This document shows positions 3,837 to 4,164 of a stretch of 6,577 nt of DNA, piece by piece (the first letter of the stretch is position 1; each line of letters opens with the position of its first letter). The position numbers and the translations under genes are program-made. The stretch comes from a virus, in the UHGV virus genome UHGV-1437364. One strand, written 5' to 3'. The notes under the pieces were generated by a model, which did no database searches, had not been told where the DNA came from, and saw nothing but the letters and a program-made list of their open reading frames with translations.

Positions 3837-3871
3837 AGTAAGAAATTCCTCTTTGACTTAAAAAATCATAA

Positions 3872-3921
3872 CTGGATGTTCATCCAGCTCTGATTATAAT
3901 CATGATTGCATTTTGTGCAAT
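3872..3921 (-). promoter_or_regulatory. Candidate sigma70 promoter for the head operon, overlapped by operator-like palindromes
   Basis: On the minus strand: -35 TTGCAC (3920..3915), 16-nt spacer, -10 TATAAT (3898..3893). Palindromes are CTGGATG-TT-CATCCAG (3872-3887) and AATCATGATT (3898-3907). A TATAAT also reads on the plus strand at 3895-3900. Confidence 0.4.
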
Positions 3922-4001
3922 GATGTTGAGTTGCGTTGCAAATTATGAAATGATTATCCCGATCATGTGTGTCAGTGCACCAAAAAGCCTCATATGCAAA
4001 A

Positions 4002-4038
4002 GCCCGATAAGCCACCTCTGACCTTATCGGGCTTTTTT
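4002..4038 (+). terminator. Intrinsic terminator-like hairpin on the plus strand with no plus-strand gene upstream
   Basis: 10-bp stem GCCCGATAAG (4002-4011) pairing with CTTATCGGGC (4023-4032), an 11-nt loop, then TTTTTT (4033-4038). Only a 4-A run precedes it, so it is weak in the minus direction. Confidence 0.5.
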
Positions 4039-4164
4039 ATCTGCCTGCAAAGATGTCGAACGAAAATTAACCACAACCATCATCTTTTTTGCATCAAAAC
4101 AATTAAAAACAATAAATTACGCTCATGATGATGATGACGATAAAATCACAAAAATGCGCTTTTT

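What the first reader, a model, noticed from the sequence alone, without database searches (positions are those of the whole stretch)
3840..4040. Regulatory hub with overlapping palindromes, a TATAAT on both strands, and an orphan plus-strand terminator
The ~410-bp gap between the SSB and head operons contains a plausible minus-strand sigma70 promoter for the head operon, overlapped by a 16-bp and a 10-bp palindrome that look like operators. A TATAAT reads on the plus strand at 3895-3900, followed about 100 nt later by a strong plus-strand terminator (4002-4038). No plus-strand protein gene exists anywhere in the window, so this may produce a small regulatory RNA of roughly 130 nt or serve as a convergent-transcription barrier. 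The plus-strand promoter has no good -35, so this is tentative.
Basis: partly seen in the sequence, partly recalled or inferred. Interest (0 to 1): 0.5.

Follow-up and report, generated by a model that had tools for sequence, protein, structure and literature searches.

The report
SOS-controlled capsid promoter of a phage satellite
This gap is the control region of the capsid/packaging operon of an EcCICFT073-type phage satellite of E. coli. It holds a strong promoter covered by a binding site for the host DNA-damage repressor LexA, and next to it a conserved back-to-back promoter and terminator that probably make a tiny non-coding RNA.

Summary

- **Head promoter.** The minus-strand promoter TTGCAC-16-TATAAT (3920-3893) is the best sigma70 match in the window. 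It is conserved in E. coli, Salmonella and Pluralibacter relatives.
- **16-bp palindrome.** It is a LexA (SOS) box, AACTGGATGTTCATCCAGCT (3870-3889). It scores 18.65 bits on a matrix of 18 documented boxes, within their range, and has the same half-sites as the ruvA box. None of 300 random windows reached this score. It is kept in 54 of 55 variants and in other genera.
- **10/12-bp palindrome.** This is only the -10 element, and it is no more frequent than chance.
- **Plus-strand terminator (4002-4038).** It is real and unique in the window. Distant relatives have a different hairpin at the same place and in the same orientation.
- **Plus-strand promoter.** The likely promoter is not the TATAAT at 3895. 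It is a conserved divergent promoter, TTGAGT-17-TGaAATGAT (3926-3954), which predicts an RNA of about 78 nt rather than about 130 nt.

No expression data were available. LexA control of this module is not reported in the literature I could search. The closest precedent is the LexA-controlled operon I of SaPIs.

The parts
3846..3853 (-). Shine-Dalgarno sequence AAGAGGAA of the first head-operon gene (68-aa protein, ATG at 3836).
   Evidence: Read. Invariant in five lineages.
3870..3889 (.). LexA (SOS) box AACTGGATGTTCATCCAGCT, with core CTG-N10-CAG at 3872-3887. It covers the predicted transcription start of the head promoter.
   Evidence: The matrix was built from 18 documented E. coli LexA boxes (PMC3009722 Table 4). 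The site scores 18.65 bits, and 0 of 300 random windows reach that. It scores 16-22 bits in 54 of 55 variants, with CTG and CAG invariant and the centre variable. It is also present in Salmonella (18.1 bits), in Pluralibacter (17.7 bits, shifted 12 nt) and in the prototype EcCICFT073.
3893..3920 (-). Head-operon sigma70 promoter: -35 TTGCAC (3920-3915), 16-nt spacer, -10 TATAAT (3898-3893). The predicted start is about 3886.
   Evidence: It has the highest promoter matrix score in the window, 11.3. The 16-nt spacer holds in 54 of 54 variants, TATAAT in 53 of 54 and TTGC in 54 of 54. The same promoter is the top hit in L004, L088 and L090.
3891..3902 (.). 12-bp palindrome TGATTATAATCA, which places TATAAT on both strands. 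I read it as the -10 element itself, not an operator.
   Evidence: 1 observed against 1.9 expected by chance. The palindrome is lost in L088 (GGTTTATAATCA) and L004 (TGATTAAAATCA), while the minus-strand -10 is kept.
3906..3920 (.). Conserved dyad TTGCA-N5-TGCAA over the -35 and spacer of the head promoter. It is a candidate operator for an unidentified regulator.
   Evidence: Kept in E. coli, L004 and Pluralibacter, and with one mismatch in Salmonella. No factor could be assigned.
3926..3954 (+). Divergent sigma70 promoter: -35 TTGAGT (3926-3931), 17-nt spacer, extended -10 TGaAATGAT (3946-3954). The predicted start is about 3961.
   Evidence: The equivalents at the same position are TTGACT-17-AATTAT (L004), TTGATC-17-AATAAT (Salmonella) and TTGACA-17-AATTAT (Pluralibacter), scoring 10.7-12.3. 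In 54 of 55 E. coli variants the spacing is 17, the TG is invariant, and the -10 is AATGAT, AATTAT or AATAAT. Conservation collapses immediately after the -10.
3961..4038 (+). Predicted non-coding RNA of about 78 nt, with a variable 5' part and a conserved terminator.
   Evidence: Inferred from the promoter and terminator. The equivalent RNAs in relatives are 63-92 nt. Minimum free energy is -26.2 kcal/mol, z = -4.8. There is no conserved ORF (my reading) and no Rfam family. Expression is not shown.
3998..4038 (+). Intrinsic terminator: A4, 10-bp stem GCCCGATAAG/CTTATCGGGC, 11-nt loop, T6. It looks bidirectional, because the minus strand reads A6-stem-TTTTG.
   Evidence: It is the only such hairpin in the window, with 0 in 60 shuffles. 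The stem is invariant and the loop variable across 55 variants. L004, L088 and L090 have a different hairpin at the same place. The T-run is 6/8/5/8 in the plus orientation against 4/3/4/4 in the minus orientation.
4049..4218 (-). Phage cos-like segment with the cosN-like motif ACGGGGCGGGAGGCGCGG at 4184-4166. It is inserted between the two terminators and is not part of the head control module.
   Evidence: It is 86-90% identical to the region just upstream of terS in Stx-converting lambdoid phages, and it also matches mEp460. It is absent from most related islands, where the two hairpins lie 7 nt apart.
4213..4236 (-). Intrinsic terminator of the upstream replication/SSB operon (AAGCCGGA-GCAA-TCCGGCTT followed by T6 on the minus strand).
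   Evidence: repeat I11. The same hairpin directly abuts the head-module hairpin in most islands.

Best explanation
The stretch 3840-4040 is the control module of the capsid/packaging operon of an EcCICFT073-type phage satellite (PICI). That operon encodes a 68-aa protein, a lambda E-like capsid protein, a lambda D-like decoration protein, a scaffold-like protein, and possibly the TerS-like Rpp further on, although one of the two cosN sites (1730-1741) and a non-coding gap (1597-1801) lie in between.

1. A strong sigma70 promoter (TTGCAC-16-TATAAT, minus strand) starts the operon at about 3886.
2. The host repressor LexA binds the SOS box at 3870-3889, which lies over that start site. The operon is therefore silent in normal growth. 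It is derepressed when DNA damage triggers RecA-mediated LexA cleavage, which is the same signal that induces the lambdoid helper prophage. This is independent of the helper-dependent AlpA switch that controls excision and replication.
3. A second sigma70 promoter (TTGAGT-17-TGaAATGAT, plus strand) lies back to back with the first; their -35 hexamers are 5 bp apart. It transcribes away from the operon and is stopped after about 78 nt by the terminator at 4002-4038. The result is a short non-coding RNA with a lineage-variable 5' part.
4. The same hairpin has an A-run on one side and a T-run on the other. It probably also acts as a second barrier, after the SSB terminator, against read-through from the replication operon into the LexA-controlled promoter.

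Shown: the sequence elements, their statistical significance and their conservation. Inferred: LexA binding, both start sites, termination, and the existence and role of the RNA.
For: **Island identity**
- Gene content matches.
- The prototype EcCICFT073 carries the same region with the same box, promoter and hairpin (PMC6092414).

**LexA box**
- My recollection of the ruvA box CTGGAT-N4-ATCCAG was verified in PMC3009722 Table 4.
- The site scores 18.65 bits. Leave-one-out scores of the 18 real boxes range from 6.6 to 27.6.
- It still scores 17.8 bits when ruvA and cho are left out of the matrix.
- The next best site in the window scores 6.7, and 0 of 300 random windows reach 18.65.
- Across variants only the central four bases and CCAG/ACAG vary; CTG and CAG never do.
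- The box is kept in Salmonella and Pluralibacter although the flanks have diverged. In Pluralibacter it is displaced by 12 nt but retained.

**Head promoter**
- It has the top matrix score in the window and in each relative.
- The 16-nt spacer is invariant.

**Divergent promoter**
- It is positionally conserved with exact 17-nt spacing in four diverged lineages and improves toward consensus in them.
- The invariant columns coincide with TTGA, TG, -11A and -7T, and conservation is lost right after them.

**Terminator**
- It is unique in the window.
- The stem is conserved and the loop is free to vary.
- Non-homologous hairpins in L004 and L088 sit at the same position, always with the longer T-run on the plus orientation.
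- The A-run has no use for minus-strand termination, yet it is conserved.
- The cf-PICI of strain Sakai, which has a different head module, shows no recognisable copy of the second hairpin or of these promoter sequences (visual reading only).

**Precedent**
- The packaging operon I of SaPIs is LexA-controlled (Ubeda 2007, cited in PMC6092414).
Against: - There is no transcript, 5'/3'-end or LexA-binding data for this locus. The EHEC Hfq-CRAC list cannot help, because strain Sakai carries a different head module.
- The sigma70 matrix uses approximate frequencies from memory.
- The distant E. coli relative L004 has the promoter pair and a terminator but no LexA box (best hit 6.4 bits). LexA control is therefore not universal in the family.
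- The 5' part of the predicted RNA is not conserved between lineages. It has no target in the window above chance: best -30.2 kcal/mol against a shuffle mean of -30.0. The RNA may have no sequence-specific function.
- Terminator-stem covariation is minimal, with one compensatory pair.
- PMC6092414 reports that alpA expression is not SOS-dependent and found no phenotype for the capsid gene c1499. The biological need for SOS control of this operon is therefore unproven.
Confidence: 0.6

Rival explanations
1. The plus-strand TATAAT at 3895-3900 is the promoter of an sRNA of about 130 nt that ends at 4038. The symmetric -10 would then make a bidirectional promoter, and LexA would repress both directions.
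For: - The plus-strand -10 is perfect, and its matrix score of 9.6 is among the top five in the window.
- The palindrome TGATTATAATCA is kept in 51 of 55 E. coli variants and in Pluralibacter.
- The LexA box would cover its -35 region.
Against: - The -35 is poor (TGGATG or CTGGAT).
- The plus-strand hexamer degenerates to TTTAAT in L004 and TATAAA in L088, while both keep the plus-oriented terminator and the other plus-strand promoter.
- In E. coli its conservation is explained by the minus-strand -10 that it overlaps.
Confidence: 0.2
2. No functional plus-strand RNA exists. The hairpin at 4002-4032 is only a transcriptional insulator, a second minus-strand terminator in tandem with the SSB terminator. 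It shields the LexA-controlled head promoter from read-through. The upstream conserved block would be an UP element or activator site of the head promoter.
For: - The hairpin always travels with the head module and sits directly after the upstream gene's terminator.
- A T4 tract follows it on the minus strand in most lineages.
- The RNA body is poorly conserved and has no detectable target.
Against: - The T-run is always longer on the plus orientation, and in L004 only TTT follows on the minus strand.
- A conserved A-run of 5-8 upstream has no role in minus-strand termination.
- The conserved positions upstream match a sigma70 -35, TG and -10 at exact 17-nt spacing on the plus strand, not an UP-element pattern.
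Confidence: 0.2
3. The 16-bp palindrome acts as RNA, not as an operator. It would be a 5'-leader hairpin followed by U6 (3889-3860, minus strand) that attenuates the head operon until a helper-phage antiterminator (Q-like or N-like) lets RNA polymerase through. Alternatively, it is the operator of a satellite or phage repressor other than LexA.
For: The simple scan lists it as a terminator-like site on the minus strand. Lambdoid helpers regulate their late genes by antitermination (general knowledge).
Against: - The predicted start (about 3886) lies inside the 5' arm, so the full hairpin would not be transcribed.
- The variation pattern, with invariant CTG and CAG and CCAG changing to ACAG on one arm without compensation in 4 variants, fits a LexA site better than a stem.
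- The LexA matrix score lies in the range of validated boxes.
Confidence: 0.1

Closest known systems
LexA-controlled operon I (packaging/capsid-remodelling module) of Staphylococcus aureus pathogenicity islands (Ubeda et al. 2007, Mol Microbiol 65:41)
   Same: In both, a satellite's packaging and capsid genes sit behind their own promoter, and that promoter carries a host LexA operator. The module therefore responds to the SOS signal separately from the satellite's master switch (Stl in SaPIs, AlpA here).
   Different: The sequences are unrelated. The Gram-negative box is CTG-N10-CAG, whereas the Gram-positive box is CGAAC-N4-GTTCG. The SaPI case is demonstrated experimentally, and this one is predicted only. 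In the papers I could search, no LexA control is described for E. coli PICIs.
Chromosomal E. coli SOS boxes of ruvAB and cho (CTGGAT-N4-ATCCAG type)
   Same: The half-sites are the same, CTGGAT and ATCCAG, and so is the 16-bp core. The matrix scores are similar: 18.65 here, 18.4 for ruvA and 19.4 for cho.
   Different: This box sits on a mobile satellite in front of virion genes. Its flanks are AA/CT in this window and AA/TT in most variants, rather than CG/CA.
EcCICFT073, the prototype Gram-negative PICI (Fillol-Salom et al. 2018, 2019)
   Same: The gene order is the same (SSB or PerC, gap, 68-aa gene, capsid c1499, decoration c1500, TerS-like Rpp, two lambda-type cosN). The control region is nearly identical.
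   Different: The island in this window sits at tRNA-Pro/yejM rather than next to phoQ. It also carries an extra Stx-phage-type cos-like segment inside the gap.
Short terminator-ended sRNAs of lambdoid elements: lambda OOP RNA (77 nt), and the EHEC prophage anti-sRNAs AgvB and AsxR (51-60 nt; PMC4104026)
   Same: All are sigma70-driven non-coding RNAs of about 50-90 nt that end in an intrinsic terminator and lie on a phage-related element. Like the anti-sRNAs, this one has a conserved 3' part and a variable 5' part.
   Different: There is no sequence similarity and no Rfam match. The location differs, being upstream of a capsid operon and divergent from it. It is not antisense to any gene, and expression and Hfq binding are unknown. 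It is not PasB.
Bidirectional intrinsic terminators, and back-to-back terminator pairs between convergent transcription units
   Same: The A-run/stem/T-run architecture is the same, and the hairpin directly abuts the oppositely oriented terminator of the upstream gene.
   Different: Here the flanking protein-coding genes run in the same direction. The convergent unit would be only the short RNA.

Membership tests
E. coli LexA operator (SOS box) | A 16-bp dyad CTG-N10-CAG inside a 20-bp site resembling TACTG(TA)5CAGTA. | tested here: met
   AACTGGATGTTCATCCAGCT at 3870-3889. It scores 18.65 bits against 18 documented boxes, inside their leave-one-out range of 6.6-27.6.
E. coli LexA operator (SOS box) | Occurs more often than chance and is unique in its neighbourhood. 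| tested here: met
   The next best site in the window scores 6.7 bits, and 0 of 300 random 6.6-kb sequences reach 18.65.
E. coli LexA operator (SOS box) | Overlaps the promoter or transcription start of the regulated gene. | tested here: met
   The core begins 5 nt after the -10 in 54 of 54 variants and covers the predicted +1. The start site itself is predicted, not mapped.
E. coli LexA operator (SOS box) | The contact bases are conserved in orthologous loci. | tested here: met
   CTG and CAG are invariant in 54 of 55 variants. The box is present in Salmonella, Pluralibacter and CFT073. It is absent in the distant lineage L004.
E. coli LexA operator (SOS box) | LexA binding, and RecA-dependent induction by DNA damage. 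| not testable with these tools
   This needs a gel-shift or footprint and reporter or RNA-seq assays with and without mitomycin C in lexA(Ind-) and lexA(Def) strains.
Sigma70 promoter (head operon, minus strand) | -35 and -10 hexamers at 16-18 nt spacing, with -11A and -7T. | tested here: met
   TTGCAC-16-TATAAT scores 11.3, the best in the window, and is conserved. The strict scan did not list it because the -35 matches only 3 of 6.
Sigma70 promoter (divergent, plus strand) | -35 and extended -10 at 17 nt, conserved in relatives. | tested here: met
   TTGAGT-17-TGaAATGAT scores 8.3 here and 10.7-12.3 in L004, L088 and L090 at the same position. In 54 of 55 variants it keeps the spacing, TG, -11A and -7T.
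Sigma70 promoters (both) | A mapped transcription start. | not testable with these tools
   No 5'-end data for this locus were reachable.
Intrinsic (Rho-independent) terminator | A GC-rich stem-loop immediately followed by a U-tract. | tested here: met
   On the plus strand there is a 10-bp stem (6 G-C pairs) followed by U6. It is unique in the window, with 0 in 60 shuffles. On the minus strand only U4 follows, so that orientation is marginal.
Known sRNA families (Rfam 15; PasB; EHEC EcOnc list) | Match to a curated covariance model or to a published sRNA sequence or position. | tested here: not met
   There is no Rfam hit in 3900-4040 even at E<=5. The PasB probe sequence is absent. No EcOnc entry applies, because Sakai lacks this head module.
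Bidirectional promoter by -10 symmetry (Warman et al. 2021; recalled from memory, not checked here) | Overlapping -10 hexamers on opposite strands giving divergent starts about 18 bp apart. | tested here: inconclusive
   The hexamers overlap (3895-3900 plus, 3898-3893 minus), but the predicted starts are 21 bp apart. The plus-strand hexamer is not conserved in L004 or L088.
EcCICFT073-type PICI | int, AlpA-like HTH, primase-type replication module, lambda E-like capsid and D-like decoration genes, TerS-like Rpp, two lambda-type cosN, about 11 kb, in a non-prophage att site. | tested here: met
   Pfam and PHROG assignments, the island map in Nissle 1917, two cosN, and the same module in CFT073.

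The most novel reading that the evidence does not exclude
The head module of EcCICFT073-type satellites carries its own small-RNA gene: a conserved divergent promoter, a body of 60-90 nt and a conserved terminator. Its 5' 'seed' diversifies rapidly between lineages. Like the prophage anti-sRNAs AgvB and AsxR, it would act in trans on helper-phage or host RNAs to tilt the satellite-helper conflict. Together with direct LexA control of the capsid genes, this would give Gram-negative PICIs a second regulatory layer, independent of the helper and of AlpA, that has not been described.
Probability: 0.15. Interest if true: 0.7.

Novelty: new member of a known kind. Interest (0 to 1): 0.45.

Why it matters
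For E. coli PICIs the only described switch is AlpA. [quoted passage not shown] How the capsid/Rpp module is timed has not been described.

A LexA operator on that module would mean the satellite reads the host DNA-damage signal directly, as SaPIs do. That would be convergent logic in unrelated elements. It also predicts that antibiotics which induce SOS switch on satellite capsid and interference genes even without a helper phage. This is relevant to gene transfer in uropathogenic and probiotic strains such as CFT073 and Nissle 1917.

The predicted small RNA is a cheap, testable candidate for a new satellite-encoded regulator. If neither prediction holds, the region is still an ordinary promoter/terminator junction.

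Tried and rejected
- **Small plus-strand ORF.** A 39-aa ORF (MIAFCAMML..., ATG 3902) and an 18-aa ORF inside the RNA were considered. Neither has a Shine-Dalgarno sequence, the start codon is lost in the O157 variant, there is no synonymous-substitution bias, and L004 has a different stop (my reading).
- **Known RNA families.** There is no hit in the region.
- **PasB.** Its ExPEC-biased distribution made it a candidate, but the probe sequence is absent and it lies in a different prophage.
- **Esr41.** It is encoded on SpLE1, not on this island.
- **EHEC Hfq-CRAC list.** Strain Sakai carries a cf-PICI with another head module at this site, so the list is uninformative.
- **Trans target within the island.** The best duplex is no better than shuffles.
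- **The 68-aa first gene as a ribbon-helix-helix autoregulator.** The AlphaFold2 model (beta-hairpin plus two helices, pLDDT 74.6) has no significant PDB fold match. There are no Pfam or NCBIfam hits, and the only PHROG match is to a family of unknown function (phrog_3255).
- **P2/P4 Ogr/Delta site (TGT-N12-ACA), sigma54, CRP/FNR and IHF motifs** for the TTGCA dyad. By eye there is no match.
- **The search for related loci in species-representative genomes** found nothing. IMG/VR and exact-protein look-ups supplied the relatives instead.
- **Literature search for LexA control of E. coli PICIs.** It returned only citations of the SaPI paper.

Full report
**What the window is.** All supported genes lie on the minus strand:
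- a D5-type primase (6546-5236);
- a 92-aa protein;
- SSB (4673-4251);
- a 414-bp gap;
- a 68-aa protein (3836-3630);
- a lambda E-like major capsid protein (3630-2575);
- a lambda D-like decoration protein;
- a 137-aa protein resembling the scaffold end of head proteases;
- a Nu1-like TerS.

The stretch 3600-4300, which spans the gap, is 99.9% identical to an island of about 11 kb at tRNA-Pro/yejM in E. coli Nissle 1917 and ATCC 25922. That island also carries an integrase, an AlpA-like HTH protein and Icd-like genes. This is the gene set of EcCICFT073, the prototype Gram-negative PICI, described with capsid c1499, decoration c1500 and two cosN. The CFT073 genome carries the same head module and an almost identical control region.

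**Checking the observation.** Two elements are far above chance. The terminator hairpin is the only one of its kind in the window, with none in 60 shuffles. The 16-bp palindrome is discussed below. The 10/12-bp palindrome is not above chance, with 1 observed against 1.9 expected.

**The 16-bp palindrome is a LexA box.**
- CTGGAT-N4-ATCCAG has the half-sites of the ruvAB SOS box. I confirmed that recollection in a published table of 18 E. coli LexA boxes.
- On a symmetric weight matrix built from those boxes, AACTGGATGTTCATCCAGCT (3870-3889) scores 18.65 bits. The real boxes score 6.6-27.6 on leave-one-out (ruvA 18.4, lexA 19.1).
- The score is still 17.8 when ruvA and cho are omitted from the matrix.
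- The next best site in the window scores 6.7, and none of 300 random windows reached 18.65.
- I collected 55 distinct upstream regions from IMG/VR. In 54 of them the box scores 16-22 bits. CTG and CAG never change, while the central four bases do, and CCAG sometimes becomes the more canonical ACAG.
- The box is also present in Salmonella (CTGGATAAATATCCAG). In Pluralibacter it has been displaced 12 nt downstream yet retained.
- One distant E. coli lineage (L004) lacks it.

**The head promoter.** On the minus strand, TTGCAC-16-TATAAT (3920-3893) is the highest-scoring sigma70 candidate on either strand of the window (11.3). It is also the top hit in each relative. The 16-nt spacer and the 5-nt distance from the -10 to the LexA core are invariant. 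The predicted start, about 3886, lies inside the box, so bound LexA would block initiation. The 12-bp palindrome is simply this -10 with symmetric flanks. The symmetry is lost in Salmonella and in L004, while the minus-strand -10 (TATAAT or TAAAAT) is kept.

**The plus-strand terminator.**
- The gap is modular. Window 3837-4038 travels with the head module, whereas 4049-4250 matches other islands and phages.
- In most islands, including CFT073, the hairpin sits 7 nt from the oppositely oriented terminator of the upstream gene. This is the classic back-to-back arrangement of convergent units.
- The stem is invariant and the loop varies.
- L004, Salmonella and Pluralibacter have different hairpins at the same place, with one compensatory pair in Pluralibacter.
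- In all four lineages the T-run is longer in the plus orientation (6, 8, 5, 8) than in the minus orientation (4, 3, 4, 4), and an A-run of 4-8 is conserved on the other side.
- This points to real plus-strand transcription, with a possible secondary role as a barrier to minus-strand read-through.

**Which plus-strand promoter?**
It degenerates to TTTAAT (L004) and TATAAA (Salmonella).
- A second candidate is conserved everywhere at the same position and with exact 17-nt spacing:
  - TTGAGT-17-TGaAATGAT here (3926-3954);
  - TTGACT-17-AATTAT in L004;
  - TTGATC-17-AATAAT in Salmonella;
  - TTGACA-17-AATTAT in Pluralibacter (scores 8.3-12.3).
- In 54 of 55 E. coli variants the spacing, the TG, -11A and -7T are kept, and only the fourth hexamer base varies.
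- In the five-lineage alignment the invariant columns are TTGA, TG and AAT.AT, and conservation collapses right after them.
- The predicted start, about 3961, gives an RNA of 78 nt ending at 4038. The equivalents in relatives are 63-92 nt.
- The two -35 hexamers (3915-3920 and 3926-3931) are 5 bp apart, so the two promoters may compete. That is inference.

**The predicted RNA.**
- It folds into a weak 5' hairpin plus the terminator (-26.2 kcal/mol, z = -4.8).
- Its 5' part comes in at least three unrelated versions within E. coli.
- It has no conserved ORF, no Rfam family and no target in the island above chance.
- It is not PasB or Esr41.
- The EHEC Hfq-binding catalogue cannot test it, because strain Sakai carries a capsid-forming PICI with a different head module and an unrelated upstream region.
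- Its existence and function are therefore inferred.

**Comparison with what is known.**
- The nearest functional precedent is SaPI operon I, whose promoter is repressed by LexA (Ubeda 2007).
- For E. coli PICIs the papers I could search describe AlpA as the activator. [quoted passage not shown]
- Those papers mention LexA only in reference lists.
- The elements themselves are ordinary: a sigma70 promoter, an SOS box and an intrinsic terminator. What is new is their assignment to this module, and the candidate sRNA.

**Verdict.** I put the combined model at 0.6. The head promoter plus LexA box is more secure, at about 0.8. The 78-nt RNA is at about 0.5.

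Noticed in passing
window 28-46 (minus) and 6532-6550 (plus): The Nextera transposase mosaic-end sequence CTGTCTCTTATACACATCT sits at both ends of the window. The contig ends are adapter read-through, and the terminal ORFs that contain it (e.g. 6369-6560) are artefacts.
   Followed up: yes
window 863-874 (plus) and 1730-1741 (minus): Two exact lambda cosN cores, GGGCGGCGACCT, lie in inverted orientation flanking the Nu1-like TerS/Rpp gene. 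They correspond to the two cosN reported for EcCICFT073.
   Followed up: partly
window 4049-4218: This is a third cos-like segment. It is 86-90% identical to the DNA just upstream of terS in Stx-converting lambdoid phages and also matches mEp460. It carries a variant cosN-like motif, ACGGGGCGGGAGGCGCGG (4184-4166, minus strand). It is inserted exactly between the SSB terminator and the head-module hairpin, and is absent from most related islands, including CFT073. It might let the island be packaged by a second class of helper phage.
   Followed up: partly
window 4990-5225: A field of at least 12 TCTACC/GGTAGA iterons, with a long imperfect palindrome at 5060-5157, lies between the primase and the 92-aa gene. 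It gave spurious microRNA hits in Rfam. It is probably the island's replication origin.
   Followed up: no
L001 18347-18366; L002 11728-11747; L094 7261-7280 (outside the window): Further LexA-box-like sites (16.9-19.0 bits) lie between int and the AlpA-like regulator in the Nissle island, in an O157 island and in the Sakai Sp7 cf-PICI. This is notable because alpA expression was reported not to depend on SOS.
   Followed up: no
window 3906-3920: The dyad TTGCA-N5-TGCAA overlaps the -35 and spacer of the head promoter and is conserved in E. coli, Salmonella (one mismatch) and Pluralibacter. Another TTGCAA lies at 3936-3941. No known factor could be assigned.
   Followed up: partly
window 3630-3836 (minus): The first gene of the head operon encodes a 68-aa protein found in E. 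coli, Salmonella and Pluralibacter islands. The AlphaFold2 model (beta-hairpin plus two helices, pLDDT 74.6) has no significant PDB match and no family assignment beyond an uncharacterised PHROG family.
   Followed up: partly
window 1802-2215 (minus): The 137-aa protein matches only the C-terminal part (positions 494-567 of 583) of the PHROG 'head maturation protease' family. That is the scaffold-like portion, so the island may encode its own scaffold alongside the capsid and decoration proteins.
   Followed up: no
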